A DNA stretch of 64,000 nt, from contig OZ253442.1 in the NCBI GenBank assembly GCA_965261085.1, positions 4,096,001-4,160,000 of the forward strand, given 5' to 3'. Below, piece by piece: positions 2,486 through 58,175 of this stretch. Source of the stretch: a bacterium. GTDB taxonomy: Bacteria; UBA8248. The notes under the pieces are model-generated. The model ran no database searches. It saw only the letters and a program-made list of their open reading frames with translations, and was not told the origin of the DNA. Position numbers and translations under genes: made by a program. The stretch's first letter is position 1. Every line of letters begins with the position of its first letter.

Positions 2486-2494
2486 GTGTAGAGT

Positions 2495-3469
2495 CTATTC
2501 GGCCCGGGGCAGGCGCCTGGCCCCGAACTCTCCCAGCAACACCAACCCGCCGCCTGAGAGCGCGAGCGCTTTAGAAATTCCCTGGCGCGAGGCCAGGGGT
2601 TTGAAAGCGGCATCGGCCGAAACGCTGCGCCCGCCGTCCCGGCTGACGAGCAAGGTGCCTTCGAGACCGGTGACGAGCAACAAATCCGGCTTCAGCCGCA
2701 CCGCCCCCGTCAAAGTCGCCTTCGTGGCGGTGCGCACCTTGGTCCAGCTCTCGCCCCCGTTCTCGGAGCGAAACATGCTGCCCCTAAGCCCCAGCAACAA
2801 CAATCGGTTCGCATCGAGCGCGAGCGCGGAAAACCACGAGCCGGCGTAGGGAGAGGAGAGCTTGCGCCAGGTGTCGCCGCCATCGTCGCTGCGATACAGG
2901 ACGCCCGCTTCTCCGGCGATGAACAACCGCCCCGGTCCTGCGGGAACCAGGGCGTTCAGATGAAAATCATCCTTGTCGATGGTTCGCGGCTTCCAGGTGC
3001 GGCCGCCATCCTTTGTGCTGAGGAAATAGCCATACGCCCCCACGGCGAAGCCCACCCGCTCGTCGCGGAACCAGACGTCGAGCAGGGGGCGTTCTTCTTT
3101 GGGCGCGTGATGCGTCAAGCTCCAGGTCATGCCGCCGTCCTCGGTGCGGAGGATGACGGCGTCGTGACCGACTGCCCAGCCGATGCGGGCATCGTGCATG
3201 TGCACCGCGGTGAGCAGGGAGCGGACGGGTGCGCGGGCCTGTTTCCAGCTTGCGCCGCCATCGTCCGAAACCAGCACGTGGCCGCGCGCGCCGACCACCA
3301 CCAGGCGCGAGCCGGCGGACGCGCCGTCGAGCAGCAGGGATTTGGGCGCAAGCCGCGCGTGAACGGCCGGTTGGGCGCTCGCCGCTCCAAAGGACAGCAG
3401 ACAGAATATGAGGCAGGGCAGGAGGCGCAGACTCAATCTTCCTGGGATTCCGGAGGTCGCCGCAATCAT
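2495..3469 (-). CDS. YCF48-like BNR/Asp-box repeat beta-propeller protein
   Basis: Repeated SxDGGxTW motifs; signal peptide; ATG 3469 overlaps the upstream TGA (ATGA). Confidence 0.88.
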   Translation of the reverse strand: MIAATSGIPGRLSLRLLPCLIFCLLSFGAASAQPAVHARLAPKSLLLDGASAGSRLVVVGARGHVLVSDDGGASWKQARAPVRSLLTAVHMHDARIGWAVGHDAVILRTEDGGMTWSLTHHAPKEERPLLDVWFRDERVGFAVGAYGYFLSTKDGGRTWKPRTIDKDDFHLNALVPAGPGRLFIAGEAGVLYRSDDGGDTWRKLSSPYAGSWFSALALDANRLLLLGLRGSMFRSENGGESWTKVRTATKATLTGAVRLKPDLLLVTGLEGTLLVSRDGGRSVSADAAFKPLASRQGISKALALSGGGLVLLGEFGARRLPRAE

Positions 3470-4824
3470 CTCCTGCCCATTCGGCGCAACGCCGAGGGCG
3501 TGAAACCCCTGGAGGAGTAGTTCGTGCCGAAGACGTTCATGGGATATTCGTTGTTGAGCCCCAGGGCGAGGTAGCGCCCCGCCTGAATATCGGTGTGCAC
3601 CTGGAGGGTAAAGCCCAGCAAGGGTTTTTCGTAATAGTTGACGACGTGCCCTTCCGACACGCGCCAGAGTTGATCCCTGTTGTCGTAAATGTCCACGAGC
3701 AGGATCATCCATGAATCCTCATCCACGTAGAGCCGCCGTTTCTTGTAGATGTGGCGCGCTCCTTTCTTGAGCGTCGCCTCGACCACCCAGACCCGGTGCA
3801 GTTCATAGCGCAGATACTTCGGGTTGACGTGCAAAGGCTTCAAAACGTCTGCGAAGGTGATTTTATCGCTGTGCAGTTTGTAGCTGTTATAGGGCGCGTA
3901 CATCTCCCGCTTGCCGAGAAGCTTCCAGTCGTAGCGGTCGAGCGCCCCGTTGAACATGTCGAACTGATCGCTCGTCCGCAGTCCGTCCGCAGCGGTGCCC
4001 GGGTTGTCGTAGGCGATGTTCGGCGCGCGCCGCACCCGGCGCTGGCCGGGATTGTACACCCAGGCGTGGCGCGGCTCGGCGACCTGGTTGAGCGTCTCGT
4101 AGGCCAGCAGAATCCGGCCCGCAAGCCGCGCTGGCGCCGCCACCTTCTGCCGGAAAAGAATCATCCTGTTGTTGAGTTTCGCCTCCGTCATGCCCGGCAG
4201 GGAATAGCGCGCGAGGTAGGCGTCCTCGAGCCGGACGAGCGTGTAATCACCGCTCCGGGTGACGGCGGCCTGGGCGATGACGCGCGAGGCGGCCTCACCC
4301 CGGTAGCGCAGCAGGTGATTCCAGATCACCTCTACTCCTTTTTTGGGAACCGGAAACGGAATCCCGATCACCGCGCCCGTGACGCCGTTGCCCCCGGCGG
4401 TGAGTTTCGCGGTGGCGGCGACGCGCCGGGTGGCCTCGTAGATGCGCTTCGGGAACGCCGCGCTGCGCCGGGTCGGATAGACCGGAAGACTGAGCGTCGG
4501 GTAAATCTCCAGCATCTTCTGAAGCCCGGCCGAGAGCTTTGCGCGATGTTTGTCGAGGTTGGCGCGGGTGATGGTGAAAAGCGGCCTGTCGCCGGAATAG
4601 GGGTCGGGATGGTGATCGCCGACCTTGTAACCAGCAGGCGGGGTCGTGATGCCCCCCTTCCACTCCGGAATCGTTCCCGCGGCGTTGCCCGCCCGTTCCG
4701 CCCCGAGAGGGGTGAGATCCTTACCCAGCCGTGCGATCTCATCGGCGGAAATCGCGGCGGAGGCGCTGGTCGCGACGAAGGTGAAAAGCATCGCGACGCT
4801 GATTCTCAAGATGATGGTTTTCAT
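3466..4824 (-). CDS. DUF1329 family secreted protein
   Basis: Signal peptide MKTIILRISV..., LTPLGAERAGNAAGTIPEW and AWVYNPGQRRVRRAP motifs; start re-called at ATG 4824. Confidence 0.9.
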   Translation of the reverse strand: MKTIILRISVAMLFTFVATSASAAISADEIARLGKDLTPLGAERAGNAAGTIPEWKGGITTPPAGYKVGDHHPDPYSGDRPLFTITRANLDKHRAKLSAGLQKMLEIYPTLSLPVYPTRRSAAFPKRIYEATRRVAATAKLTAGGNGVTGAVIGIPFPVPKKGVEVIWNHLLRYRGEAASRVIAQAAVTRSGDYTLVRLEDAYLARYSLPGMTEAKLNNRMILFRQKVAAPARLAGRILLAYETLNQVAEPRHAWVYNPGQRRVRRAPNIAYDNPGTAADGLRTSDQFDMFNGALDRYDWKLLGKREMYAPYNSYKLHSDKITFADVLKPLHVNPKYLRYELHRVWVVEATLKKGARHIYKKRRLYVDEDSWMILLVDIYDNRDQLWRVSEGHVVNYYEKPLLGFTLQVHTDIQAGRYLALGLNNEYPMNVFGTNYSSRGFTPSALRRMGRR

Positions 4825-8398: not shown

Positions 8399-9301
8399 TT
8401 ACCTCTTCACCATTCCGAAAGTGAAACCTCGCACCAGGTGTTTTCGAATGAAAATGCCGATGATCATGAGCGGCAGGGTGATCCCCACCGCCAGAGCGGC
8501 CTGATGGCCGTAGACGCGGCCCTCGTCGGAGCCTTCGTATTTCGCCAACTGGACGGGCAGCGTCACCACGTCCACCTTGGAGAGCATGAGAGAGAGCAGA
8601 TATTCGCTCCACGTCAGGATGAGGATGAACAGGAACGTCGCCACTAACCCTGAGCGAATGAGCGGGAATATGACCTCGCGGATCGCCTGCCATTTGCTCG
8701 CGCCCAGAATCTCCGCGGCCTGTTCGAGCTCGACGGGAACCTCGTCCACGAAGCTCTTCGTCATCCAGACGGAATAGGGCAGCGTGGTGATGAAATAGAC
8801 GATCACCAGCCCCGTCGCGGTGTCCATCAAATGGATCGCCGAGTAGTAGAGGGTGAGAGGCGCCGCCACCACAATGGGCGGGATCATCCGCAGCACAAGG
8901 AGCTGGAACATTCGTATCTCGGATAGTATCCGGTAGCGAGAGACGCCGTAGGCCAGGATCGCGCCGAAGGCGACCGAAAGCGCGGTGGCGGTAATCGCGA
9001 TATAGAGGCTGTTCCAGAGCGCCTGCCAGGGCTTGTTCGCCGAAGCCGACTCGTAGCGGGCGGTCTGCGTTTTCACATCCGCAGCCGAGCGGGGACTCTC
9101 GGGCCTGCCCCACACCGCCTGGTAGTTGGCCCATGAGGCCTCCTGCGACCAGTAGACCGGCGGCCAGGCGTGCCACTCCCAGTCGGGCTTGAACGAGGTG
9201 GAGACGATCCAGAATACCGGAAACGCCACGATCAGCGACCAGAACAGAAGCATGGCGTAGCGGAATATGTTGAACAGGCGTCCCTTCATGACTCGGTTCA
9301 T
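8399..9301 (-). CDS. Carbohydrate ABC transporter permease
   Basis: TM helices, EQAAEILGAS EAA-type loop. Confidence 0.92.
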   Translation of the reverse strand: MNRVMKGRLFNIFRYAMLLFWSLIVAFPVFWIVSTSFKPDWEWHAWPPVYWSQEASWANYQAVWGRPESPRSAADVKTQTARYESASANKPWQALWNSLYIAITATALSVAFGAILAYGVSRYRILSEIRMFQLLVLRMIPPIVVAAPLTLYYSAIHLMDTATGLVIVYFITTLPYSVWMTKSFVDEVPVELEQAAEILGASKWQAIREVIFPLIRSGLVATFLFILILTWSEYLLSLMLSKVDVVTLPVQLAKYEGSDEGRVYGHQAALAVGITLPLMIIGIFIRKHLVRGFTFGMVKR

Positions 9302-9303
9302 GC

Positions 9304-10266
9304 CTAAGCCTCCGTGCGCGGCGCTTCATACAGGGTGTCGAGCGCCTGTTTCTCGCGGCGCAGCACGTAGATCGCCGTGAGAACGATGAATATCATGATG
9401 ACCATGACGATATAGGACATCGCCGCGCCCTTCGATATATCAAACGACACCCAAGTCGTGAAATAGAGATAGATGGGTATGGTCTCGGTAGCGGTGCCCG
9501 GCCCTCCCTGGATGAGGCCCCACGTCTTGGGGAATTCCGCCATGGCCTCGAGGAAGCGCAGGATGAGCGCCAGGAATATGACGGGCCGCAGGAGCGGAAG
9601 CTGAATCTCGCGGAAAATCTGCAAGCGGTTCGCTCCGAGGATGCGCGCGGCCTCCACGGGCTCGGCCGGCAGCGAGGAGAGGCCCGCCAGCATGATGATG
9701 AAGACGAAGGGAGTCCAGTTCCATATTTCCAGAAGAATAATGGTGAAGATGGCGAAATTCGGGTTTGCCAGCCAGGTGAACTTCGAGAGGTCTCCCGGCA
9801 GGAAATAGCTCAAGAACCCGTTGATGGGTCCTTTTTCATATAAAAGCATGTCGGCGGTGTATGCGATGACGACGGGCACCGTCAGCATGGGAATGATGAA
9901 GAGGATATAGAAAAACGCCTGCCCCTTGAAGGGCTTGTACATCAGCAGCGCCAGAATGAAGCCGCATATGAAACAGCCCAGCGTCGAGAGGCTCGCGAAC
10001 ATGAGCGAGCGCCCCATGGCCCTCCAGAAACGCCCTTCGGTCAACACCTCCTGGAACAACTCCAGCCCCACGAAATCCGCGTCGAACCAGGTGGAGAGAT
10101 AGACCGTCCAGGAATGAAGCGAAAAATATATCTGCAAAAGAAAAACGGGCATCAGGAACGCGAACAGAATGATCAGCGGGGAGAGCGCGCTCCATTTGAA
10201 TATGCGCACGCCGCGGGCGCGGGTGGAGCGTCTACCCTTGGGCTGCGCATCTATGGCCGTCGCCAT
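9304..10266 (-). CDS. Carbohydrate ABC transporter permease
   Basis: WNWTPFVFIIMLAGL and EAARILGA motifs; start re-called at ATG 10266. Confidence 0.92.
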   Translation of the reverse strand: MATAIDAQPKGRRSTRARGVRIFKWSALSPLIILFAFLMPVFLLQIYFSLHSWTVYLSTWFDADFVGLELFQEVLTEGRFWRAMGRSLMFASLSTLGCFICGFILALLMYKPFKGQAFFYILFIIPMLTVPVVIAYTADMLLYEKGPINGFLSYFLPGDLSKFTWLANPNFAIFTIILLEIWNWTPFVFIIMLAGLSSLPAEPVEAARILGANRLQIFREIQLPLLRPVIFLALILRFLEAMAEFPKTWGLIQGGPGTATETIPIYLYFTTWVSFDISKGAAMSYIVMVIMIFIVLTAIYVLRREKQALDTLYEAPRTEA

Positions 10267-10431
10267 TCGTGAGACTCCTACCAATATCGAGTAGATCGGG
10301 GCATGAACCAGGATCCATCCGGAAGCGAGTATCGTGTCGGCGACCGGGGCCGGCGACTGTCCGCCGGCCCCGGTTATCGAAACATGAAATCCCTCCCCGG
10401 AGCACACGCCCCGGGGAGAGGAGTTTCCGCC

Positions 10432-11883
10432 TTACATAGGCTTGTCCATCTTCGGCATCATCGCCTTGTAGAAGGGGATCTCCTTCCTGAGCTTGCGCTT
10501 GCCGACCTTGCGAACGATCTTGGTCCACTCTTTCTGGATGTCGCCCATGACCTTCTTGGCGCCCTTCTTGCGGCCCGCGTAGGCCTCGGAGAGGTTGCGG
10601 TCCACGACTTCCTTGAACTCCTGGTAGCCGGTCACGTACGGCGGCGGCGCGGTGACGAGGAGGTTCTGCTCCACTGCCTTGATTCCCTCCTTGGAGTAGA
10701 CCTTCGTCACCTTCGGGTCGGTCATGTGTTTGGGATGCCAGGGGTCGTGGAAGGTGAAAATTGGATGACCGACCACCTCGGCGCTGTTCTTGTAGGTGCT
10801 CATGTACATGGCCCATGCGACGGCCTGCTTCTTGCGCGGGCTGTGCCGGTTGATGACCATGCCCATCACCGGCGCGGAGAAGGCGCGGTGGATTTGCTTG
10901 CCGGAGAACTTCGAGCCCGGCACCAGGCCGTAGCGCCACTTGCCCCTGGTCTTCGTGCCCGCCGTCGGGCTCTCGATGGCCGCGATAATCCCGTCCCAGT
11001 ACTGGCAGGAGAACATCTCGCCGTTGCGGATGCGGGGGATCATCTGCGGCGAACCCCAGGCGCCCGCCTCGGGGTGGGAGACCTGCTTGCGCGCCAGCCA
11101 GGTGTCGAAGGCGTACTCGGCCGCAGGCGTGTTCAGCGTGGGGTTGGCGTCGTCGTCGAACGGGAAGCCGCCCGCGCTGTAGAGATACATCCAGTACCAG
11201 AAACTGCTGTTCGCCTTATCGCGCAGTCCGCCGAAGCCGTAGAGTCCCTTGTCGGGCCTGTGGAAGAACTTCATCATCTCGAGTTCGTCTTCCCAGGTGA
11301 CCGGCCACTTGAGGGGCTTGCCGTGCTTGTCGGCGAAGGCCTTGCGCTCGTCGGGATTGTCGAAGTAATCCTTGCGGATGAACTGCGGGCAGACGTTGCC
11401 GTCCGTGGGCATGGCGTAGGTCTTGCCCTGATACTGCATGAAGCTCTCGAAGTTGCCCACCATCTGGAGGTCGAAGCCCGCGTCTTTCATGTAGCCGTCG
11501 AGGGGCTCGATCATTCCCGCGGCCACGAGGGAGGGAATCATCATGGACTCGACGTGAAAGATGTCGAACGTGCCCGAGCGCGTGATGGCCTCGGCCATGG
11601 CCCGCTGGGGAATCTGCAGGTTGGGAACGTCGCTGATCTTGTCCATGGAGATGCCGGTGGCTTTGTTGAACTCGCGATTGAGGTCGGGGTAGTTGCGCCA
11701 GTACAGGCCCCACATCATTCCGTTCAGCTTGGCGCCGCCCAGCTTCTTCGCCGCTTTGATGACGGCGTCCTCCTCGGGCCCGGCATAGGCTTTACCGGCG
11801 CCGCCGAGAACGGCGGGACCCGCCACGGCGGTGGCCAGACCGGCCTTGAGGAGGCTTCTTCTTTTGATCTGTTTCTCGCTCAT
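10432..11883 (-). CDS. Extracellular solute-binding protein with Tat signal
   Basis: KRRSLLK twin-arginine signal, SBP family 1 character, RBS GGAGG, first gene of the ABC operon. Confidence 0.9.
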   Translation of the reverse strand: MSEKQIKRRSLLKAGLATAVAGPAVLGGAGKAYAGPEEDAVIKAAKKLGGAKLNGMMWGLYWRNYPDLNREFNKATGISMDKISDVPNLQIPQRAMAEAITRSGTFDIFHVESMMIPSLVAAGMIEPLDGYMKDAGFDLQMVGNFESFMQYQGKTYAMPTDGNVCPQFIRKDYFDNPDERKAFADKHGKPLKWPVTWEDELEMMKFFHRPDKGLYGFGGLRDKANSSFWYWMYLYSAGGFPFDDDANPTLNTPAAEYAFDTWLARKQVSHPEAGAWGSPQMIPRIRNGEMFSCQYWDGIIAAIESPTAGTKTRGKWRYGLVPGSKFSGKQIHRAFSAPVMGMVINRHSPRKKQAVAWAMYMSTYKNSAEVVGHPIFTFHDPWHPKHMTDPKVTKVYSKEGIKAVEQNLLVTAPPPYVTGYQEFKEVVDRNLSEAYAGRKKGAKKVMGDIQKEWTKIVRKVGKRKLRKEIPFYKAMMPKMDKPM

Positions 11884-50302: not shown

Positions 50303-50353
50303 CCGCCAGGCTTAGAACCGCATTGAGGTGAGAACCCGTTCTGCCCCAATGCG

Positions 50354-50390
50354 AAAAACCGGCCCTCCCCGTATCGGGAGAGCCGGCTCT
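50354..50390 (-). terminator. Intrinsic terminator ending the phage-like operon
   Basis: Minus strand ccggctctccc-gatacg-gggagggccgg followed by ttttt, immediately after TAA at 50391. Confidence 0.8.
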
Positions 50391-50594
50391 TTAGTTCTTG
50401 AATCGTCTGAGATTCGCGCTTTTCCTACCCGGCTCCCGCCGACTCATCCGCTCCAGGGCCAAGCCGGCTTCGAGTACCTCCTGGTTGAAGCGAAACTCCT
50501 CCCAGGAGCATCGGGCCAGCAGGTGCGGGGGGAGGCCGTAGGTCTTCGCCTGAAAATGAATGACCCCCAGAAATTCTTTCCTACGCCGCCGGAA
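50391..50594 (-). CDS. Probable frameshifted C-terminal extension (T part) of the tail assembly chaperone
   Basis: Open +1 frame overlapping the end of 50581-50973, no obvious own RBS/ATG, terminator directly after its stop. Confidence 0.6.
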   Translation of the reverse strand, partial: FRRRRKEFLGVIHFQAKTYGLPPHLLARCSWEEFRFNQEVLEAGLALERMSRREPGRKSANLRRFKN

Positions 50595-50973
50595 ACGTAT
50601 CGCCTCCCGGCGCGCCCTCCTCAGGGGCAGGGGCCGCCGTCTCGTTCTGCAGGGCCGTAACGGCGGTGAAGATCGCATCCGCATCCGCCGGGGCGAGTTC
50701 ATGGATACTGAGTTCATCCGGCATACAACGCCCCGGTTCTTTTTCAGTCATCGAGCCGCGCTCGGGAACGAAACAACGCCTCAGGATGCAGTGCACCCAC
50801 TCTCCGGTGAGCGCATATCGCTCCTCCCCGCTCGCAGCGCCGTTCGAGGCGCCCGCGAACAGTTTCGGATACGCCGCCATGTCCAGGAGATTCGGCGCGC
50901 GCACGAAGCCCTTGAGCCCTGAAGGCAGGGTGATGGGCTTGCGGCCATGGTTTCTGTATTCTGATATTTCCAC
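50581..50973 (-). CDS. Putative phage tail assembly chaperone (G part)
   Basis: Directly after the tail tube gene; GTG start with ggagg RBS; size and position typical. Confidence 0.65.
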   Translation of the reverse strand: MEISEYRNHGRKPITLPSGLKGFVRAPNLLDMAAYPKLFAGASNGAASGEERYALTGEWVHCILRRCFVPERGSMTEKEPGRCMPDELSIHELAPADADAIFTAVTALQNETAAPAPEEGAPGGDTFPAA

Positions 50974-51045
50974 GATTCCTCCCTATCGTTTTCGCTGAAT
51001 CAGACCCACTTGAGATGAAGAAGAATCCGCCTATTGGGATGACGA

Positions 51046-52185
51046 CTAGGTGAAGACGATAGATATCTCGTCATCGCCTATATCGCGCGCCAGGCGGTAA
51101 GGCGCATCGTAAGTCAACAGACCGTCCCGGTCCCCGAAACCCAAATCCGAATATTGGCACTTGGGCGCGGTGATGGTGCAGATGTTCCCGGCCCTGTGGC
51201 CGATCTGCACGCCCAGGGGGAGTTGCGCGCCGCTCTCCCAATCGGCGAACACATCGTCGGTGGCTTTGAGCACGGCTTCGGGGTCGAACGAACCGGAGGG
51301 CGCCCGGCCCGTCACCATGGCGTTCACGTGTCCGCCCGATGCGTTGGCGCTCTGGCGCAAAACCACGTTGTTGTTCATGGCGAAGCGGATGTTCGTCACG
51401 TCGAAGTGGAACCCGCCGAACGAGAAGCCGCTCATGAGGACGGGTTCGGGCGTTTCGGCGTCGTAGGAATCGCCATTGAGCAGGGCTGCATCGCTCACCT
51501 CGAAATCGGCCGCCTCGAACTCCCAGTCCACCGTGGGAACGCCGTCCAGAGGGCAATTGATGGAAAAACTCCCCATGCAGCCCAGATACATGATCCGCAA
51601 GCCGTCGATGAACGTCGTCAGGCAGATTCTCGTGTAGTCCGATTTATCGGATGTGGGTGCATAGGTGACGGAGGCGCCCGCGGCAATCGTCTCCCTCATC
51701 GCACAGCCTTTGAACAACAATCCATAATCCGGAGCAATTCCCGCAGCGCCGGAACCGCGCAACTCGGTGGAAAAGGTAATCTGGGCGGAGCGCTTCCCGG
51801 GAATCGACGGGAAGGGCGAGAGGCTCGCATCCTTCACCGCGCGCTCGAGCTGCTCCACGCTGACCTCATGGGCGAAGTTGCCCGCCCGGAACAATTCCCC
51901 CGCAGCAGCCGGCCGATCCAGAAGATAGGCCGTGCCCGCAACGGGCATGGCGTCCCAGGCGGCGTCTACCGTAATCGTGTCCGAGGTCGAATCGAATTCC
52001 CGCACTCTTCTTTTTTGGCCGATGCCCACGCCTCGAATCGTTCGCAGCACCGAACCGTTCCAGAAATCATCATCCTCTGAAAGCGCGGCGTCCACCAAGG
52101 TGGAGGCATCGGCGGAATCCGCCACCAGTTCTTTTTCTTCCGTCGCGCCGATAGTTTGGAGATCCATCAATATCGTATCGCCCAT
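51046..52185 (-). CDS. Phage tail tube protein with inserted N-proximal domain
   Basis: ITFSTELRGSG, TITAPKCQY, GDRDGLLTY, GDDEISIVFT pattern of phage tube proteins; ggagg RBS. Confidence 0.75.
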   Translation of the reverse strand: MGDTILMDLQTIGATEEKELVADSADASTLVDAALSEDDDFWNGSVLRTIRGVGIGQKRRVREFDSTSDTITVDAAWDAMPVAGTAYLLDRPAAAGELFRAGNFAHEVSVEQLERAVKDASLSPFPSIPGKRSAQITFSTELRGSGAAGIAPDYGLLFKGCAMRETIAAGASVTYAPTSDKSDYTRICLTTFIDGLRIMYLGCMGSFSINCPLDGVPTVDWEFEAADFEVSDAALLNGDSYDAETPEPVLMSGFSFGGFHFDVTNIRFAMNNNVVLRQSANASGGHVNAMVTGRAPSGSFDPEAVLKATDDVFADWESGAQLPLGVQIGHRAGNICTITAPKCQYSDLGFGDRDGLLTYDAPYRLARDIGDDEISIVFT

Positions 52186-52257
52186 TCTCTATTCTCCTCC
52201 TTCGGTTTTTTTGAAGCGAAGGGACATCCTTCGCCGGTTTTCATTCCTTCTTTCCAA

Positions 52258-52791
52258 TCAATCCCGCCGAATCCGCTCTATCGCCCGAACCCGGATTTCT
52301 GCGTAATGGCAAAGCACGTTTCCAAATGTTCTTAGTTCAATCAGGTCCACCTGCGGAGGCTGAAGACGCTCCAGGGACCGAACGCGCGGGGCGCCTGATT
52401 CATCGAGGAGGCGAAGCGTTTTGTCGTTCCTGAAGCGGTCGCAAATCTCCTCGATCAGCTCCTGAAAGGCCACCTCACTGCCCACCGCGTCCTCGGCGCT
52501 CATGATTCCGAACAACAAGAACGTATGGGTTCTTCTGCTGAGGCCTGCGGGCGTGAAGCCGCCGGCCGCGTTCGAGCCGATGGATGCGACCTCTTCTCCG
52601 GCTCTCTCGCGCGTCAGCACCCAGCCCCTGATTTGGTTGAGGCCGTTGCCAGCTTCCCACCGGAAAAGGTCCAGGTATTTGCCCAGATCGGCCGACCAGC
52701 GCTGATAGCTGTGCACCCGCCCCGCCTCCGCCACGCTCGATATTTCCGCCAAAATGGCGTCGCCAATTTCTTTGTATTGTGATTTAGCCAC
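52258..52791 (-). CDS. Putative tail terminator/completion protein
   Basis: Position between neck and tube genes; GRVHSYQRW, GWVLTR, LCHYAEI; GTG overlaps the upstream stop. Confidence 0.6.
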   Translation of the reverse strand: MAKSQYKEIGDAILAEISSVAEAGRVHSYQRWSADLGKYLDLFRWEAGNGLNQIRGWVLTRERAGEEVASIGSNAAGGFTPAGLSRRTHTFLLFGIMSAEDAVGSEVAFQELIEEICDRFRNDKTLRLLDESGAPRVRSLERLQPPQVDLIELRTFGNVLCHYAEIRVRAIERIRRD

Positions 52792-53308
52792 CGACTCTCC
52801 TCGCAATCTCATCCAGCAGTTCACGAATGCGCCTGTCGATTCGGCTTTGGTTATCCTCAAAAGCGCGCGCGAACATGCGGTGTCCACTTGTCCCGCGCCG
52901 GACTATCGCGCGAGCAACGAGGAAGGCCACGCTCTCGATATACCCATCGGGCGGATCCAGTTTGTGGGCCACCCAGCGATACAGGGACGACCCCTCCCTC
53001 CAGGGCGGCATTCCGCCACCCGCCCGGCGTCCGAATTCCACGTACCTGGCGTAAGGGACGCGCGAAGCGACCACGCCGCGCAACACGCCCCGGCCTTCTC
53101 CCTTGATTTCGGTGAAAATACTGCCCCTGAGGTTTCCGCTCGCGCCGATGGGCGTTCGCGTCATGACCTCGCGCCTGAGCATTTCGGTGATCTCGGCCAT
53201 CGCCTCGCGCGCGAGGCGAAAAACCTCCTCCTCCTGCGCGCTCGGCGGCGCTTCCGCCAGGGCATCAAGCGTTATATGTCGACGAAACACTTCGCCTCTC
53301 CTCCCCAC
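52784..53308 (-). CDS. HK97 gp10-like neck/tail-completion protein
   Basis: TPIGASGNLRGSI, YARYVEFG, RRGT...MFARAF. Confidence 0.78.
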   Translation of the reverse strand: MGRRGEVFRRHITLDALAEAPPSAQEEEVFRLAREAMAEITEMLRREVMTRTPIGASGNLRGSIFTEIKGEGRGVLRGVVASRVPYARYVEFGRRAGGGMPPWREGSSLYRWVAHKLDPPDGYIESVAFLVARAIVRRGTSGHRMFARAFEDNQSRIDRRIRELLDEIARRVGG

Positions 53309-54019
53309 CTAGCGATCCCCGGACGCGCCGTGCGTGAAGTATTCGCCGCGCCCCAGGGAGAGGAGCGCGTCCCAATCGAGAGAAGCGCCCGCGGGACCCG
53401 CCACTTCGCCTTCCTTGCGGCCGATATGGTTCTGGTATTTACGCTCGAGCTCTCGCCCCAGGCGCGTGTATTCCCCGGACTTGCTCTGGTAGTCCACCGA
53501 ATTCGCAGCGATGGTCGGGGTCGAGGACTGGGCGAAGCGGCGGGCCAGAAGGTGGCAGCCCTCTGCGGCGGCCAGCCAGGCCACGGCGGTCAGATCGTTT
53601 TCGGGAACGCTCGTGCGCTCGTCATCTGCCGTGTGCTTGAGCGTGTAGAACAAGCGAAGCGTCTGGCCCTGTTGAGGGACGAAGTACATGAGCCTGAACT
53701 TCGCCGCCGGGGTCCCTTTCGCATAGATGATCCAGGCGCTCCTAAGCAGGTAGGAGGGTTTCCGCTTGCCCTGGGGATATTCCACCGCCCGGATGAAGGA
53801 GAGGGAATCGTCCCAAGCCGTTGGCAAGGGAAAATCGAACGTTTCGCTATCGCCTGCGAAATCGGCGAACGAGACGAGCGGCCTGTCCTTGCTGTAGCGC
53901 GTGAGCGCCGCGTTAACCAAATCGGCGAAATCCGCCTCCTCGACCCCGAACTCCTGCGGCAGCGCGCCCGCCTTCAACAGCACCTTCACCTCCTTGATGA
54001 TCGTCTGCCTGCCGGCCAT
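53309..54019 (-). CDS. Putative head-tail adaptor protein
   Basis: Position after capsid; AALTRYSKDRP, AVEYP; start ATG 54019 after aaggag. Confidence 0.6.
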   Translation of the reverse strand: MAGRQTIIKEVKVLLKAGALPQEFGVEEADFADLVNAALTRYSKDRPLVSFADFAGDSETFDFPLPTAWDDSLSFIRAVEYPQGKRKPSYLLRSAWIIYAKGTPAAKFRLMYFVPQQGQTLRLFYTLKHTADDERTSVPENDLTAVAWLAAAEGCHLLARRFAQSSTPTIAANSVDYQSKSGEYTRLGRELERKYQNHIGRKEGEVAGPAGASLDWDALLSLGRGEYFTHGASGDR

Positions 54020-54062
54020 TTCTGTTTTCTCCTTTGCTCGCTCACCCGATGCGGGCGGGGGT

Positions 54063-54404
54063 TCAAGTCTTGAGCGTGATCTTGGCCTCGAACGTGAACG
54101 AAGGCTCCTCCCCGCCGACGGACCACGCGAGCCTGACCCAGGGGCCGATGTTCGCGAGCTTGACGAGGGTTTTTCCGGTCGAGGTGATCCGGGCGGATTT
54201 GGTATGGACGAAAACCGCTTCATCATCTGCAGGCCCGGTTTGCACCTCGAAATCAAGCGTGGGGGATGCACCCGAGACCGCCGTCACGTCGATGAACAAC
54301 AGCGCCTCGGTGAAGCGGCTCACCTCGAACGCCGTGCTGCCTCCCGCGGCGACGCGGGCCGCGGGAGGAGCGAGGACTATGGTGTGGGTTCGCCTGTCGG
54401 ACAT
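54063..54404 (-). CDS. Small beta-rich virion protein (possible head decoration)
   Basis: 113 aa directly after capsid, aaggag RBS, alternating beta-strand pattern. Confidence 0.55.
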   Translation of the reverse strand: MSDRRTHTIVLAPPAARVAAGGSTAFEVSRFTEALLFIDVTAVSGASPTLDFEVQTGPADDEAVFVHTKSARITSTGKTLVKLANIGPWVRLAWSVGGEEPSFTFEAKITLKT

Positions 54405-54438
54405 GGCTTCTCCTTTGTATGGGCAAACGACCCGCGAA

Positions 54439-56520
54439 CTACGCGGGCGCGCCGCGATAGAAGCCGCGAAAGTCCAGGACGGCGCCGCCGTAGACGTGTC
54501 TGATCTTGTAGCGAATCTTGTCCGCGCTGAATCCGCTGCCGGCGGAGGGGTTGTCCTCGATGAACAGCTCGGGCTCGCGCATGTCGTCCATGAAGCCGAT
54601 TTCGATGGTGTCCATCAGGCCCGGGTCGGCGATCATGTACCAATCGTTCGCGTCGGTGAGTTCGGGCACCCACAAGGGCTCCATACCCAGGCGGTTGATG
54701 ACGCTCGGCTGCGCGGAGTTCCCGCCCGCAACAACCTTGACGGACGACTGGGTGACGTCGAACGCTTCTTCGAGCAGCTCCGTGGGGTGAACGAGAAATT
54801 TCGGCCGCGCTTGAGCCGCCACCTCGACGCCCTCTTCTCCATAAAACGTCTGCCGGCCCATCGCCTTGATGCCGGCGATGACGTTGTCGTACGTGAGCGC
54901 GTTCGTGGAGGTGTTGTTGTGGTTGGCGTGGAACAGCGCGTCCCCGTCGTATATGTCGGCGTTTGCCGTCAGGAAATCGAACACGAAGCTGTTCAGGGTG
55001 CGCTGGGCCGCACGGGCGAGACGCTGGGGAATCATGCGAATCGCGCCCATGTCGTCGTTCTGGATCATCTCCCAGGTGAGGTCTTCCACCCCACCGCGCT
55101 TGGCCACGGCGTACGTCACCTCCTCATCCGTCGGGGAGGCGAGCGCCGGATAGGTAGCCTGTTCGGCGACTTTTTGCAGATCACCGTAGCCGCCGACGCG
55201 CACCCGGCGGTTCGTGCGGAAATCCTTGACGGGCGCCACGGAGGAGACGATCTTCTTCCACTGGTGGAACCTCTCGTCCCTGAAATCACGCAGCATGGCC
55301 CGCCGGATGGAATCCCCGAACGCCTCCCCCCATGTATTCGTCTGCAAGGAGGCGGAGAGGCGGCGCACCCCGTTCCAGTCCTCGGCGGCTCGGTGATAGT
55401 GGAAAGTCTCGGCGAAGAACTGGCGCGGGGTGAGGCGATGGCCCGTGAAATCCTGAAACGCCTCGCTCATGAAGCGGTAGGGCCGCTCCCCGTCGACCAC
55501 CTCATCGCGCGAACTCCAAAGCCCGTCGAGGGCCGCTTTTTTGCGGTCCGCCTCGTCTCGCATCACCTCCGCACGCGCGCCGAAACCACGGAGTGCGCCG
55601 CTCGCCGTGAGTTTTTCCAGCGTGGACGCCTCGATGCGAATCGCATCTTCGATTTCCTCCTCAGTGAAGCTCCTGCCCCCGAACTGGGCGCGCATTTTCT
55701 CCTGAACGGCTTCGGGCAATGCGGAGGCCGCGAGTTTTTGAGCAAGCACCCTGCGCGCGGCGGTCTCCGGGGTCCTGGTTTCGTCCTTCATGGCGCTTCC
55801 TCCATTTTCCTTGAAGTCCAGTTCGAGGCCTGCGTCTTCACAGGCCGCGAGGAGTTGTTGCGGCGTCCATTTATCACCGAGCCTCCTGGCCGATTCGGGC
55901 GCCACGCTTTTGAGTTTCTTTCCGAGTTTCTCGAACATCTTCACCTCCGATGTAGTGGAATGATTGGCGGCGAGACCCAGAATCCCGCCCCCCAGCTTGC
56001 CTTTGTGCACGACGTCGACGGAGTGAACCGCCAGAATCTTTTCGAAATGCAAAACGAGCCTATCGGCCTCCTCGCGGAACTCCGCTTGCGCTAAAACGTC
56101 AAAGGAAAAGCCAAAAGGCTCATCGAGACCCCGGGCCAGCGCATCGTGCGCCAGCGCCTGAAACCATGCCGCGGATCGCGAAACCGCAAAGGTGCTCAAA
56201 AGCCCCTCCTCACCCATTCGGACCTCGCGGTGCCAGCCAACCAGGTCCTTGATGTCGGGACCACCCGACCCGGTATGGTTCGCGAACGCCTGCGCGCCCT
56301 CGAACAGGGGAGCGGCTTCGCGCAGAACCTCACGGGGCAGGAACCACTCCCCATCCCTCGAGTAGCCGGCTTGTGCGATCAGCACGTCGAAATCCCAGGT
56401 TTCGCCCGGCGGCTGCGCTTGTTTCGCAACCGCGCGAATGAGTTGGCCATGCAGCCTTAAGGGGCGAAAATCCTTTTGCGCTTCCGCGCGCGCCCATATG
56501 AGGTTCATCCATCTTTTCAA
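54439..56520 (-). CDS. Fused prohead protease-scaffold-major capsid protein (Mu gpT-like capsid)
   Basis: N-terminal FANH/GFSFD/SVDVV protease-like part; C-terminal KRGG..LTWEMIQNDD, YDGDALFHANHNN, IRYKIRHVYGG; TTG start after aaggag. Confidence 0.82.
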   Translation of the reverse strand: MKRWMNLIWARAEAQKDFRPLRLHGQLIRAVAKQAQPPGETWDFDVLIAQAGYSRDGEWFLPREVLREAAPLFEGAQAFANHTGSGGPDIKDLVGWHREVRMGEEGLLSTFAVSRSAAWFQALAHDALARGLDEPFGFSFDVLAQAEFREEADRLVLHFEKILAVHSVDVVHKGKLGGGILGLAANHSTTSEVKMFEKLGKKLKSVAPESARRLGDKWTPQQLLAACEDAGLELDFKENGGSAMKDETRTPETAARRVLAQKLAASALPEAVQEKMRAQFGGRSFTEEEIEDAIRIEASTLEKLTASGALRGFGARAEVMRDEADRKKAALDGLWSSRDEVVDGERPYRFMSEAFQDFTGHRLTPRQFFAETFHYHRAAEDWNGVRRLSASLQTNTWGEAFGDSIRRAMLRDFRDERFHQWKKIVSSVAPVKDFRTNRRVRVGGYGDLQKVAEQATYPALASPTDEEVTYAVAKRGGVEDLTWEMIQNDDMGAIRMIPQRLARAAQRTLNSFVFDFLTANADIYDGDALFHANHNNTSTNALTYDNVIAGIKAMGRQTFYGEEGVEVAAQARPKFLVHPTELLEEAFDVTQSSVKVVAGGNSAQPSVINRLGMEPLWVPELTDANDWYMIADPGLMDTIEIGFMDDMREPELFIEDNPSAGSGFSADKIRYKIRHVYGGAVLDFRGFYRGAPA

Positions 56521-56557
56521 GGGGAACTCCTTTCTCTCTGGTCCTTTCGGGTATCTG

Positions 56558-56601
56558 CTCCCGGCGATACGCCGGGGAGAGCGCCTCCCCGATACGGGAG
56601 A
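56558..56601 (-). promoter_or_regulatory. Tandem leader hairpins upstream of the capsid gene
   Basis: ctcccggcgatacgccggggag and ctccccgatacgggaga, both with GATAC at the loop. Confidence 0.5.
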
Positions 56602-56709
56602 CGGGTGCAACGGGGACAATCTAGGGCAAGGGGTCTCAAACGCGGGCCTCGCAAATGCGGGGAAATGCGTATTTGACGTCTTTTTATGAGGACTTTTTAA
56701 TTTTGCTAA

Positions 56710-56738
56710 TTGTAAATATCAGGAAAATGCGGTAACAT
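56710..56738 (+). promoter_or_regulatory. Putative sigma70-type promoter for the diadenylate cyclase gene
   Basis: TTGTAA-17 bp-TAACAT in an AT-rich intergenic region. Confidence 0.45.
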
Positions 56739-56879
56739 ACGGAAAATTATGGAGTTGCGGACGAAGCGGGTGGTCCCGGCGTCTACCAATTCTGGATTCT
56801 ACGCCCGCCACTCGGAAATTCCCGGAATCGCCGAGCGACAAAGACCGCCCCTTTATTAACGTGGACGAGGTTTAATCTC

Positions 56880-58175
56880 ATGTGGGGCGTCGCTCAACCG
56901 GCATTGAATTTCATCCAGAAGCTCTCCTGGAACCATATGCTCGACATCGGGATCATGTGGTTTCTGCTCTACCAGGTATATATTCGTTTCAAGGGCACCC
57001 AGGCGATGCGTCTCCTCGTGCGCGTATTCGCAGTATGGCTCATCTATCTCGCCTCCCAGGCCGCTGGTCTGCACCTGACCTCATTCCTGCTGTGGGCCAT
57101 CTGGATTGCCGTTCTCATCTTGTTTCTCATCAATTTCCACGGAGAAATCCAGAAGATATTCTTCCAGCTCAACCCGGTGCGCAGAATATCCACCCTGCTG
57201 CGCCGGGCGATGCGCATCCGCCTGCCGGACGAGAGCGTCGCCACCATCGCAGGCTCCGTATTCTCGCTCGCGGCCAAGAGCTTGGGAGCCATCATCGTCG
57301 TGGAACGCCGCGATTTGACCGAAGCGCTCTTGAACAGCCCGGGTGAGGAGATCGAGGCGGTCATCCAGCCCACGCTTCTCGATTCCATCTTCTTCAAGGG
57401 GGCGCCCTACCACGACGGCGCCGCCGTGGTTCACGAGAACAAGGTCTCGCGCGCGGGCTGCCTCCTGCCCCTTTCGGAGAACCGCGCCCTGCCGCCTGAG
57501 TTCGGCACGCGCCACAGGGCGGCGGTGGGCATCACGGAGCGCTGCGACGCCCTGGCGATCGTCATATCCGAGGAACGCGGAGAGATCACCTGCGTGGAAG
57601 GCGGCCTTATCAAGGCGATGAAAGATGAAGATGAACTCGCCTCCTGGCTCACCACGCGGCTGCGCGCGGCCCGAGGGGCGGGACAGACGAAAAGGCGCAT
57701 ATCGCTTGGCCACGTTTTCGATAACTGGCGGCCCAAGCTCGCCGCGCTGGCCGCCGTTATTTTCCTCTGGTCGCTCGGCGGGCAGGAAAACCAAAATCCG
57801 CAGAATTTCTTCCCGCAACTCGAAAGCAAGGTAGAGGAAGAATTCCGGGTTCCACTCCATTATTACAACATTCCGAACGGCGTCACTCTGCCGGCCGATG
57901 CAGTGAAGGTGGTCAAAATCCGCCTCAGGGGCAGGCGCGATCTACTGAACTACATCGACGCCACCCGTCTGCGCATGAACGTGAACCTCGCCAAAATGAC
58001 GCCCGGCGCGCATTCGCGCACGCTATCGAGCCGCGATATCGACCTGCCGAGCGACCTCGAATTCCTGAGCGTGGAACCCAAGGCCTTGGAACTGAACCTC
58101 GCCAAAGCCCCCGCGCCTGAGAAAATGACGAAATCGAGCGCCTCCACAGAAACGCCGGAGTCCTCGAACTTTTAA
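56880..58175 (+). CDS. Membrane diadenylate cyclase (CdaA/DisA_N) fused to a C-terminal YbbR/CdaR-like domain
   Basis: 3 TM helices, YHDGA and GTRHRAA catalytic motifs, SEERG, extra TM plus YbbR-like beta domain. Confidence 0.9.
   Translation: MWGVAQPALNFIQKLSWNHMLDIGIMWFLLYQVYIRFKGTQAMRLLVRVFAVWLIYLASQAAGLHLTSFLLWAIWIAVLILFLINFHGEIQKIFFQLNPVRRISTLLRRAMRIRLPDESVATIAGSVFSLAAKSLGAIIVVERRDLTEALLNSPGEEIEAVIQPTLLDSIFFKGAPYHDGAAVVHENKVSRAGCLLPLSENRALPPEFGTRHRAAVGITERCDALAIVISEERGEITCVEGGLIKAMKDEDELASWLTTRLRAARGAGQTKRRISLGHVFDNWRPKLAALAAVIFLWSLGGQENQNPQNFFPQLESKVEEEFRVPLHYYNIPNGVTLPADAVKVVKIRLRGRRDLLNYIDATRLRMNVNLAKMTPGAHSRTLSSRDIDLPSDLEFLSVEPKALELNLAKAPAPEKMTKSSASTETPESSNF

What the first reader, a model, noticed from the sequence alone, without database searches (positions are those of the whole stretch)
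50354..56625. Self-contained phage head/neck/tail-tube operon without packaging, tape-measure or integration genes: candidate domesticated (GTA-like) particle system
Seen: seven co-oriented, uninterrupted, closely spaced ORFs in canonical virion order (protease-scaffold-capsid, small decoration-like protein, adaptor, HK97 gp10-like neck, tail terminator, tail tube, tail chaperone). The block has a structured leader, an intrinsic terminator right after the last gene and host-like GC. Host genes flank it directly (cupin/F420 operon on one side, diadenylate cyclase on the other). No terminase, portal, tape measure, baseplate, lysis, repressor, integrase, transposase or gene debris was seen anywhere in the 64 kb. 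Established: in tailed phages terminase and portal usually precede the capsid and the tape measure follows the chaperone; known GTAs such as RcGTA are intact, host-like in composition and split over several loci. Inference: this is one locus of a host-domesticated virion-like system built on a Mu gpT-type capsid, unlike the RcGTA cluster, rather than a decaying prophage.
Basis: partly seen in the sequence, partly recalled or inferred. Interest (0 to 1): 0.9.

Follow-up and report, generated by a model that had tools for sequence, protein, structure and literature searches.

The report
Scattered domesticated phage particle genes
This block of phage head, neck and tail-tube genes is one of three scattered, co-regulated and vertically inherited pieces of an old phage that a whole family of uncultured marine bacteria has kept intact, most likely to build gene-transfer-agent-like particles.

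Summary
On the minus strand of window 50354-56520 lie seven intact virion genes: protease-scaffold-capsid fusion, a 113-aa protein, adaptor-position gene, HK97 gp10-like, terminator-position gene, tail tube, and a chaperone with a conserved overlapping T-frame. An intrinsic terminator ends the block; host genes flank it.

- Locus C (split gpA-type large terminase plus portal) starts 1.75 kb past the window's right end.
- Locus E (Dit-like, TipJ-like hub, four further genes, 578-aa tape-measure candidate) lies about 255 kb away.

Evidence for domestication:
- All three loci are syntenic in the same 20 of 22 species genomes of the genus. Two non-sister genomes lack all three, with host flanks intact.
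- Capsid orthologs (61-98% identity) occur in 32 of 41 family genomes.
- The element tree matches the host tree.
- Median dN/dS is 0.14-0.45.
- The three operons share one host-type promoter motif.
- More distant relatives carry homologs of genes from all three loci in one contiguous phage-like module.

No integrase lies near any locus. No small terminase or lysis gene was found, and there is no expression or particle evidence. This is a strong genomic candidate for an independently evolved GTA-like system in a Nitrospinota/'Tectomicrobia'-labelled lineage. Function is unproven.

The parts
50354..50390 (-). Intrinsic terminator (12-bp GC-rich stem, 5-nt loop, UUUUU) directly after the stop of the T-frame
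   Evidence: Fold gives -31.5 kcal/mol, z -5.03, with 0 of 200 shuffles as good. Sequence read. A remnant of this end survives in G010, where the block is deleted.
50391..50600 (-). 'T' extension of the tail assembly chaperone, in the +1 frame relative to g7. It has no start codon of its own near the junction
   Evidence: Conserved as protein (68-97% identity) in 14 of 14 genus loci and in G041. GTTTCC at the junction is conserved in all 16 sequences aligned. Expression by a +1 slip on UUU_C is inference.
50581..50973 (-). g7, tail assembly chaperone candidate (130 aa), named by position
   Evidence: No family hit. 74-97% identity in 11 genus genomes. Median dN/dS 0.14.
51046..52185 (-). g6, tail tube protein (379 aa)
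   Evidence: PF18906 Phage_tube_2 E 3e-12 and phrog_290 E 7e-22. dN/dS 0.17. Split by a 1.78-kb IS in G013.
52258..52812 (-). g5, tail terminator or completion candidate (about 184 aa; start uncertain)
   Evidence: No family hit. Homolog of the gene in this position in Mae-JY22 (30%, E 1e-13) and in G032. dN/dS 0.19 over 8 genomes.
52784..53308 (-). g4, HK97 gp10-like neck/head-closure protein (174 aa)
   Evidence: PF04883 E 3.9e-8 and phrog_5 E 2.5e-16. The least constrained gene, dN/dS 0.45.
53309..54019 (-). g3, head-tail adaptor candidate (236 aa), named by position
   Evidence: No family hit. Homolog of Mae-JY22 CDS 8494-9174 (30%, E 5e-21). dN/dS 0.23.
54063..54404 (-). g2, 113-aa protein of unknown role
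   Evidence: Only a weak phrog_9522 hit, E 4e-4. 65-91% identity in the genus. dN/dS 0.30.
54439..56520 (-). g1, prohead protease - helical scaffold - major capsid fusion (693 aa, TTG start)
   Evidence: One intact ortholog in 20 of 22 genus genomes (78-98%) and in 32 of 41 family genomes. dN/dS 0.18.
56521..56617 (-). 5' leader with two hairpins in G000. Only the second (CCGGCG...CGCCGG) is seen in most relatives
   Evidence: Sequence, alignment. RNAalifold consensus is weak at -4.1 kcal/mol. No Rfam family.
56618..56668 (-). Promoter: tandem GCATTTCCCCGCATTTGC (56651-56668), a 27-nt spacer, then the -10-like TAGATT (56618-56623)
   Evidence: Motif and -10 are conserved in 14 of 14 leaders. 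The same architecture stands upstream of the terminase operon and of the tail operon. Only 22 strict sites exist in the 4.27-Mb genome.

Best explanation
The block is the head-neck-tube operon (locus A) of a three-locus, host-fixed remnant of a siphovirus.

The other two loci in G000 are:
- Locus C, 9.2 kb upstream, just outside the window (G000:C1:4161753-4164840). It encodes a gpA-type large terminase split into an ATPase gene and a translationally coupled nuclease gene, followed by the portal.
- Locus E, about 252-260 kb away (3886622-3894208). It encodes a Dit-like protein, a small protein, a TipJ-like hub, three more tail-tip proteins and a 578-aa tape-measure candidate.

Each operon sits behind the same host promoter type: tandem GCATTT repeats, a 26-27 nt spacer, and a -10 hexamer.

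Inferred mechanism:
1. An unidentified host factor that binds the repeats switches on all three operons.
2. The capsid fusion assembles on portal and is matured by its own protease domain.
3. The two-part terminase fills heads with DNA.
4. Neck proteins join a tube that the chaperone (G and frameshifted G-T forms) and tape measure assemble on the tail tip.

The genes are scattered over about 278 kb and have no integrase or replication module nearby. The particles therefore cannot carry their own full gene set. They most likely carry host DNA, as a gene transfer agent does.

Shown: gene content, dispersal, common origin, vertical inheritance, purifying selection, shared promoter motif, joint loss.
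Inferred: particle production, the DNA that is packaged, its transfer, the frameshift, the regulator.

The confidence given (0.6) is for the whole statement, GTA-like function included. That this is a domesticated, selected three-locus virion gene set I hold at about 0.9.
For: 1. Missing parts found. tblastn with the proteins of a contiguous relative (G032) hit a portal at 4161765-4163003 (E 5e-60) and a tail protein at 3886631-3887692 in G000.
- Portal: phrog_10963, E 2e-46.
- Terminase ATPase: phrog_675, E 5e-49, and PF05876 GpA_ATPase, E 8e-18.
- Terminase nuclease part: phrog_675, E 1e-12.
- e8: tape-measure PHROGs, best E 1.5e-6; two GEAGPE motifs; TMP-family leads from the Atlas.
- e3: TipJ/Phage-tail_3-like by the Atlas, score 0.95.
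- e1: homolog of the gene after the tape measure in Mae-JY22.

2. One origin. In G027, portal, capsid, g3-g5, e1, e2 and e3 homologs are contiguous. In G041 (capsid 70%), portal to g7 and e1-e3 lie in one 17-kb run that ends beside the same cupin/cofE genes.

3. Fixation.
- Capsid, portal, terminase ATPase and e1 are each present in the same 20 of 22 genus genomes.
- Synteny of locus A with both host flanks holds in 13 of 13 genus loci in which both flanks lay on the fetched DNA. G016 shows the same order, but its contig ends inside the cupin gene.
- e1-e6 and e8 are in order in 11 of 11 loci.
- Family-wide, the capsid is in 32 of 41 genomes at 61-98% identity, against about 42% outside the family.

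4. Selection. Median dN/dS is 0.14-0.45 for 17 genes over up to 12 genomes. Seven host flank genes give 0.07-0.20. The capsid is better conserved than the neighbouring cyclase, for example about 80% against 66% in G020.

5. Co-diversification. The element tree (14 genes) and the host-flank tree have the same clades.

6. Joint loss. G009 and G010 are not sisters on the host tree. Both lack all three loci, with flanking host genes adjacent. G010 keeps a scar of both ends of locus A.

7. Co-regulation. The 18-nt motif has 22 strict sites in the genome. Three of them stand 84-148 nt upstream of the three operons, in operon orientation. It is conserved in 14 of 14 capsid leaders, 15 of 18 terminase loci and 9 of 11 tail loci.

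8. Not mobile. None of the 22 tyrosine-integrase matches in the genome lies in the window or within about 70 kb of loci C or E.
Against: - No small terminase, holin/endolysin, MuF-like minor head protein or dedicated regulator was found. The only MuF-like gene in G000 (2404548-2405558) is not conserved in the genus.
- There is no expression evidence, and all genomes are uncultured MAGs.
- Head size and the DNA packaged are unknown.
- gpA-type terminases of phages usually cut at a specific cos site (recalled), so random packaging is not a given.
- 4 of 20 genus genomes show lesions. G013 has an IS in the tube gene. G016 has a fragmented portal, g2 and e1. G006 has e1 in two pieces. G019 has e1 and the nuclease gene in two pieces. 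Some of these may be assembly errors.
- g4 is only moderately constrained (dN/dS 0.45).
- The promoter motif also precedes about 19 unrelated host genes or repeats. It shows host control, not a dedicated switch.
- The host tree rests on genes that flank locus A.
- The e1 model is poor (pLDDT 51.6) and gave no Foldseek hit at E<=1e-3.
Confidence: 0.6

Rival explanations
1. The genes are domesticated and selected, but the particles serve another host purpose than gene transfer. Examples would be programmed lysis with DNA release, killing or adhesion particles, or interaction with an animal host. In this reading, DNA packaging is incidental or serves only head stability.
For: The evidence for fixation, selection, joint loss and host-type promoter control is the same as for the best explanation, and none of it tells what the particles do. 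Several record titles name sponge-derived MAGs.
Against: Both terminase domains and the portal are under purifying selection (dN/dS 0.15-0.23). That is expected only if DNA is packaged. Tail-only killing particles do not keep capsid and terminase genes (established knowledge, recalled).
Confidence: 0.22
2. It is an old, grounded prophage that is simply decaying slowly. The intact frames are chance survival, and the three pieces have no joint function.
For: - Lesions occur in 4 of 20 genus genomes, and two genomes lost everything.
- Truncated or degenerate copies exist in other genera: L120 and G046, G050, G057, G058.
- No TerS or lysis genes were found.
Against: - 17 genes stay open with dN/dS 0.14-0.45 across species whose host proteins differ by 10-35%.
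- A translational coupling site, a frameshift junction and the promoter motifs are also conserved.
- The three loci are lost together, twice.
Confidence: 0.07
3. It is part of a still-mobile element: an intact temperate phage with an unusual split genome, or a helper-dependent satellite.
For: - The genome also holds a separate integrase-linked head module, with TerL, HK97 capsid, S78 protease and portal, at 3407521-3415975.
- Related contiguous modules with terminase, portal and tail genes exist in G032. G027 shows the portal, capsid, neck and tail homologs contiguous, but I did not test for a terminase there.
Against: - The chromosomal sites and host flanks are the same in all genus genomes examined.
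- No integrase is nearby.
- The element tree matches the host tree.
- There is a single copy per genome.
- The loci are 9 kb and about 255 kb apart.
Confidence: 0.03

Closest known systems
RcGTA-type gene transfer agents of Alphaproteobacteria (Rhodobacter capsulatus, Caulobacter crescentus)
   Same: - Phage-derived head-tail genes fixed in the chromosome.
- Genes spread over several loci (five in R. capsulatus, per passages of PMC9662315 read).
- Under host regulators, vertically inherited, co-diversifying with the host.
- Lost in some lineages.
   Different: - Different phage ancestry. The capsid is a protease-scaffold-MCP fusion of PF25209, the terminase is gpA-type (PF05876) and split in two genes, and the portal matches no Pfam portal family.
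- No CtrA/GafA-type control is known here. The promoter has tandem GCATTT repeats instead.
- No particle, packaging or transfer data exist here.
- I did not align directly against RcGTA proteins.
Brachyspira GTA (VSH-1 / BhGTA)
   Same: A single conserved terL lies outside the main structural cluster, and genus-wide conservation is used as the argument for its role (passages of PMC9662315).
   Different: BhGTA has demonstrated particles and transfer. Homologs in other Brachyspira lack synteny (same passages), whereas here synteny is strict.
Microcystis phage Mae-JY22 (PP438414), the closest cultured phage by capsid
   Same: The gene order is the same: capsid fusion, adaptor, gp10-like, terminator, tube, chaperone. 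Capsid identity is 33% over 95% of the length. The e1 profile hits its post-tape-measure gene.
   Different: Mae-JY22 is a free 41-kb phage with all modules contiguous. The tape measure directly follows the chaperones there, whereas here the tape-measure candidate ends a separate operon about 250 kb away.
Prohead protease/scaffold/major capsid fusion proteins of Stx-converting and related phages (NCBIfam NF045540, NF045541)
   Same: The C-terminal capsid domain is homologous (31% to Stx phage proteins; NF045541 E 8.5e-55). The N-terminal protease fold is predicted.
   Different: It scores far below the curated cut-offs (186 bits against 525). The N-terminal 245 aa are not matched by either profile.

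Membership tests
Gene transfer agent (viriform), criteria listed in the introduction of PMC9662315 (passages) | Particles are built from caudovirus-like structural proteins | tested here: met
   Genes for capsid, portal, terminase, gp10-like protein, tube, tape-measure candidate and TipJ-like hub are identified. The particles themselves have not been seen.
Gene transfer agent (viriform) | [quoted passage not shown] | not testable with these tools
   This needs sequencing of DNase-protected particle DNA.
Gene transfer agent (viriform) | Genome fully endogenised, often across multiple loci | tested here: met
   There are three loci at fixed sites between host genes in the genus. No integrase lies nearby.
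Gene transfer agent (viriform) | The GTA genome cannot be fully packaged into one particle | tested here: inconclusive
   Head capacity is unknown. The loci span about 278 kb (3886622 to 4164840), far beyond the 41-kb genome of the closest phage. Co-packaging is therefore implausible, but it has not been measured.
Gene transfer agent (viriform) | Vertical inheritance and co-diversification with the host | tested here: met
   Element and host-flank trees are congruent. Synteny holds. Capsid identity is 61-98% within the family and about 42% outside it.
Gene transfer agent (viriform) | Packaged DNA is delivered to other cells | not testable with these tools
   This needs transfer experiments, and the hosts are uncultured.
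RcGTA-like (alphaproteobacterial type I) GTA | Homology to the RcGTA head-tail cluster. The recalled families are an HK97 PF05065 capsid, a PF04860 portal and a non-gpA TerL | tested here: not met
   The capsid hits PF25209 and not PF05065. The portal hits no Pfam family. TerL is PF05876. The assignment of RcGTA proteins to these families is recalled, not tested here.
Intact temperate prophage | Contiguous genome with integration, regulation, replication, lysis and complete structural modules | tested here: not met
   The structural genes are split over three loci, with host genes between them. No integrase lies near them. No homologs of the other genes of related phages were found in the genome.
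Tailocin (phage tail-like bacteriocin) | Tail genes without capsid, portal or terminase (recalled definition) | tested here: not met
   Capsid, portal and both terminase domains are present and constrained.

The most novel reading that the evidence does not exclude
This is an independently evolved family of gene transfer agents, fixed before the diversification of a whole family of uncultured Nitrospinota/'Tectomicrobia'-labelled bacteria, several known from sponges. It derives from a Mae-JY22-like siphovirus. It is built with a two-gene gpA-type terminase and a self-processing capsid fusion, and a host activator that binds tandem GCATTT repeats switches on its three scattered operons. If so, it would be a main route of gene exchange in a lineage that cannot yet be grown.
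Probability: 0.5. Interest if true: 0.85.

Novelty: new variant of a known kind. Interest (0 to 1): 0.78.

Why it matters
Experimentally established GTAs come from only a few lineages: Alphaproteobacteria and Brachyspira (passages of PMC9662315), and, from recall, Desulfovibrio and Methanococcus.

This would be a genomically well-supported candidate in another, uncultured phylum-level lineage, with features that make it testable:
- A different phage ancestry.
- A conserved split terminase.
- Two clean natural 'knock-outs' (G009, G010).
- A shared promoter motif that points to a host regulator.

It would also add an independent case of phage domestication. It also shows that 'incomplete prophage' calls in single windows can hide multi-locus systems.

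My searches of the held library found no paper that links GTAs with Nitrospinota, Tectomicrobia or Entotheonella. One search returned four incidental papers. One search returned nothing relevant by title or abstract. In one search, none of the 12 papers listed (of 170 that held at least two of the terms) contained 'gene transfer agent'.

Tried and rejected
Other elements in G000, both judged separate:
- Locus B (G000 3407521-3415975) holds an integrase, TerL (PF03354/PF20441), HK97 capsid, S78 protease and portal. I first considered it the missing packaging locus. I rejected that because it has its own capsid and integrase, and the better portal/terminase match lies next to the window.
- The MuF-like gene at 2404548-2405558 is not conserved in the genus. 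Only 29-39% hits appear, in 11 of 22 genomes. It lies between integrase genes.

Naming and neighbouring genes:
- I first called e1 'TMP-like' because of its position in G032. It is all-beta and matches the post-TMP gene of Mae-JY22. e8 is the tape-measure candidate.
- The PIN gene after the portal is in only 2 of 11 genomes, so it is not part of the system.
- The G027 ORF that matched G000 at 2617425 is a host-type cell-wall amidase, judged from its sequence motifs and its neighbours (metK- and der-like genes, named by eye, not by a family search). It is not a system gene.

Structure and fold work with weak results:
- The e1 fold is poor (pLDDT 51.6), and Foldseek found nothing at E<=1e-3. The weak baseplate- and tube-like rows are not evidence.
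- PDB profile searches: e1 gave 0 hits, e8 gave only coiled-coil noise, and the capsid hit a Mu GpT-domain protein at E 0.02.
- Leader structure: the RNAalifold consensus is weak, and Rfam gave 0 matches at E<=1.
- A 16-nt hairpin motif occurs only twice in G000, once at each end of locus A. It is not conserved in relatives, being found in 3 of 14, so I dropped it as a functional claim.

Expression and earlier notes:
- No RNA holder is listed. Laying three sponge metatranscriptome contig sets gave one 42-nt partial match below 90% identity. This is no evidence either way.
- The metaproteome paper PMC6081418 contains none of the words capsid, phage, prophage, tail or virus.

Not done:
- A scan of every window ORF against profile libraries.
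- A search of all TerS and holin families.
- A direct alignment with RcGTA proteins.
- A whole-proteome phyletic profile.
- Supplementary files of papers were not consulted.

Full report
**What is in the window**

The window is G000:C1:4096001-4160000 of a single-contig 4.27-Mb genome. Seven intact, co-oriented genes lie on the minus strand between 50391 and 56520.
- g1 (54439-56520, 693 aa) starts at a TTG behind AAGGAG. That TTG is the only start conserved in all 14 aligned leaders. Its C-terminal half is a PF25209 capsid domain (E 2e-44), also hit by phrog_29592 (E 2e-132) and NF045541 (E 8.5e-55, aa 246-690).
- A model of g1 residues 1-330 (pLDDT 63.6) has an alpha/beta domain. Its only Foldseek hits at E<=1e-3 are three chains of T4 prohead protease gp21 (E 2.5e-5, TM 0.56 on the target). 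A helical stretch follows. So 'protease-scaffold-capsid' is supported.
- g4 is HK97 gp10-like and g6 is a Phage_tube_2 tail tube.
- g2, g3, g5 and g7 match no family. They are named by position only. g3, g4, g5 and g6 do have homologs, in the same order, in Microcystis phage Mae-JY22.
- g7 is overlapped by a +1-frame segment that runs to 50391. It has no start of its own and is conserved as protein in 14 of 14 genus loci and in G041. A GTTTCC junction is conserved in 16 of 16 sequences. I read this as the G/G-T chaperone pair made by a +1 slip (inference).
- A strong terminator follows at 50354-50390.
- GC is host-like.

**The missing loci**

Family searches of the genome first found a terminase and portal 740 kb away. 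That locus has its own HK97 capsid, S78 protease and integrase, so it is a separate element.

The capsid of a distant relative, G032 (about 40% identity), sits in a full head module with TerL, portal and a MuF-like gene. Its proteins, searched against G000, found two further sites.
- Locus C: a portal at 4161765-4163003, which is 1.75 kb beyond the window's right end. Immediately upstream are the terminase genes.
  - The ATPase gene is 358 aa, PF05876 GpA_ATPase.
  - The nuclease gene is 216 aa. It starts at an ATGA or GTGA overlap. A GGAGG-like stretch lies upstream of that overlap in most of the sequences shown.
  - This two-gene layout appears in 21 of 21 genomes examined. The junction sequence was inspected in 14 of them.
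  - The neighbours of locus C are host genes: DUF520, an ammonium-transporter-like ORF (named by eye), luciferase-like oxidoreductases and a dehydrogenase.
- Locus E (3886622-3894208): an operon e1-e8.
  - e1 is all-beta and matches the gene after the tape measure of Mae-JY22.
  - e3 resembles TipJ/Phage-tail_3 proteins.
  - e8 (578 aa) hits tape-measure PHROGs, has two GEAGPE motifs and long Ala/Gly-rich stretches, and gives TMP leads in the Atlas.
  - e2 and e4-e6 have no assignment.

**One ancestor**

In G027, portal, capsid, g3-g5, e1, e2 and e3 homologs are contiguous.

In G041 (capsid 70%), portal, a 313-aa ORF, capsid, g2-g7, a 4-kb gap and e1-e3 follow one another. The run ends beside cupin, cofE and the next host gene, which are the same genes that flank g7 in G000.

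So loci A, C and E are fragments of one structural module that sat next to the cupin gene. Later rearrangements moved the tail genes away and placed about 9 kb of host genes between portal and capsid.

**Fixation and selection**

- Capsid, portal, terminase ATPase and e1 each have one ortholog in the same 20 of 22 species genomes of the genus.
- Locus A with both host flanks is syntenic in 13 of 13 genus loci in which both flanks lay on the fetched DNA. G016 has the same gene order, but its contig ends inside the cupin gene.
- e1-e6 and e8 are syntenic in 11 of 11 loci.
- Across the family, 32 of 41 genomes have the capsid at 61-98% identity. Outside the family the best matches are about 42%.
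- The DAC-capsid junction also occurs in three more distant MAGs, with capsid at 60-75% and DAC at 50-53% identity.
- NG86 dN/dS medians over up to 12 genomes are 0.14-0.45 for the 17 phage-derived genes and 0.07-0.20 for seven host flank genes. g5, g6 and e6 were scored on 8, 11 and 9 genomes, because my filter dropped hits with under 85% coverage or an in-frame stop.
- A 14-gene element tree and a three-gene host-flank tree share all supported clades (quick IQ-TREE with SH-aLRT support; g5, g6, e6 and the PIN gene left out).

**Joint loss**

G009 and G010 lack all four marker genes. On the host tree they are not sisters. G010 is nested in the core clade (99 SH-aLRT), and the label needs two changes.

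In both genomes the host flanks of each locus are adjacent:
- Locus A: cupin next to DAC. G010 has a scar matching window 50350-50426 and 56608-56900.
- Locus E: the M23 peptidase gene next to the downstream host gene.
- Locus C: the flanking host genes next to the ammonium-transporter-like gene.

Two independent triple deletions argue that the loci work together.

**Co-regulation**

The 18-nt tandem motif GCATTTnCCCGCATTTGC has 22 strict sites in G000. Three of them lie 148, 84 and 147 nt upstream of g1, the terminase ATPase gene and e1. Each is followed after 26-27 nt by a TAnAtT hexamer.

The motif and the hexamer are conserved while the spacer varies. This holds in 14 of 14 capsid leaders, 15 of 18 terminase loci and 9 of 11 tail loci (strict pattern).

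The other 19 sites precede assorted host genes or a repeated element of about 100 nt. So this is a host promoter class, not a private switch.

**What argues against a working GTA**

- No small terminase, lysis gene or conserved MuF-like gene was found. I could not search all families.
- No RNA or protein evidence exists. The attempts are told under Tried and rejected.
- Four of 20 genus genomes show lesions. One of them is a clear IS insertion in the tube gene of G013.
- G041 shows several two-piece genes. These may be decay or long-read errors.
- Packaging specificity, head size and transfer are unknown.

**Comparison with the known**

The GTA criteria listed in PMC9662315 (passages) that can be read from sequence are met. 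These are caudovirus-like structural proteins, a genome endogenised over multiple loci, and vertical inheritance. The experimental criteria cannot be tested here.

The system is not RcGTA-like by protein families. Its nearest cultured relative is a cyanophage at 33% capsid identity.

Searches of the held library found no report linking GTAs to this lineage.

**Verdict**

- That this is a domesticated, selected, three-locus virion gene set I hold at about 0.9.
- That it acts as a gene transfer agent I hold at about 0.6.
- It is a new variant of a known kind. Interest 0.78.

Noticed in passing
G000:C1:4163120-4164840 (L046 7120-8840, minus), outside the window: The gpA-type large terminase is encoded as two translationally coupled genes: a 358-aa ATPase and a 216-aa nuclease starting MSARHRFCGIDTGD. 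They are joined by an ATGA/GTGA overlap, with a GGAGG-like stretch upstream in most of the sequences shown. The two-frame layout is in 21 of 21 genomes. The junction was read in 14.
   Followed up: partly
G000:C1:3407521-3415975 (L004 11521-19975, minus): A separate integrase-linked head-only module in the unusual order TerL, HK97 capsid, S78 protease, portal. It abuts host GFO/IDH/MocA genes and has no tail genes. It recalls capsid-forming satellites. Conservation was not tested.
   Followed up: no
G000 genome, 22 sites (for example 1291847+, 1423299-, 2292909-, 3259106+, 3699542+, 1878624-): The tandem GCATTT promoter motif recurs genome-wide. At six or more sites it is followed by a near-identical element of about 100 nt ending ...GAATTTCTGAAAATATCGATAAATT. 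This may be a repeated small RNA or a mobile promoter cassette.
   Followed up: no
window 50365-50380 and 56585-56600: A 16-nt hairpin core (CTCCC-GATAC/GTATC-GGGGAG) occurs only twice in the whole genome, as an inverted pair at the two ends of locus A. It is found in only 3 of 14 relatives.
   Followed up: yes
L033 (G013:C2) 10026-11807: A 1.78-kb insertion with a roughly 498-aa transposase-like ORF splits the tube gene. An 88% identical copy lies in G000 at 273993-275761.
   Followed up: yes
G000:C1:2404548-2405558 (L048 8545-9558, minus): A MuF-like gene (phrog_11747, E 6e-50) sits between integrase genes at 2394808-2396699 and 2411625. It is not conserved in the genus. It is probably part of another mobile element.
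   Followed up: partly
L120 (CAMYJL010000408.1) 2001-4193: In a more distant MAG, the capsid gene next to DAC is interrupted. It is followed directly by short e3- and e4-like fragments. This is a degenerate, deleted version of the system.
   Followed up: no
G000:C1:4160932-4161423 (L046 4932-5423, minus): A PIN-domain gene (PF01850, E 3e-5) lies directly downstream of the portal. It is present in only 2 of 11 genus genomes checked.
   Followed up: partly
L047 13625-14278 (G000:C1:3891625-3892278): A variable gene e7 lies between e6 and the tape-measure candidate. It is 97% identical in G008, 35-47% in three genomes and absent from seven. It may be a swapped specificity or accessory gene.
   Followed up: no
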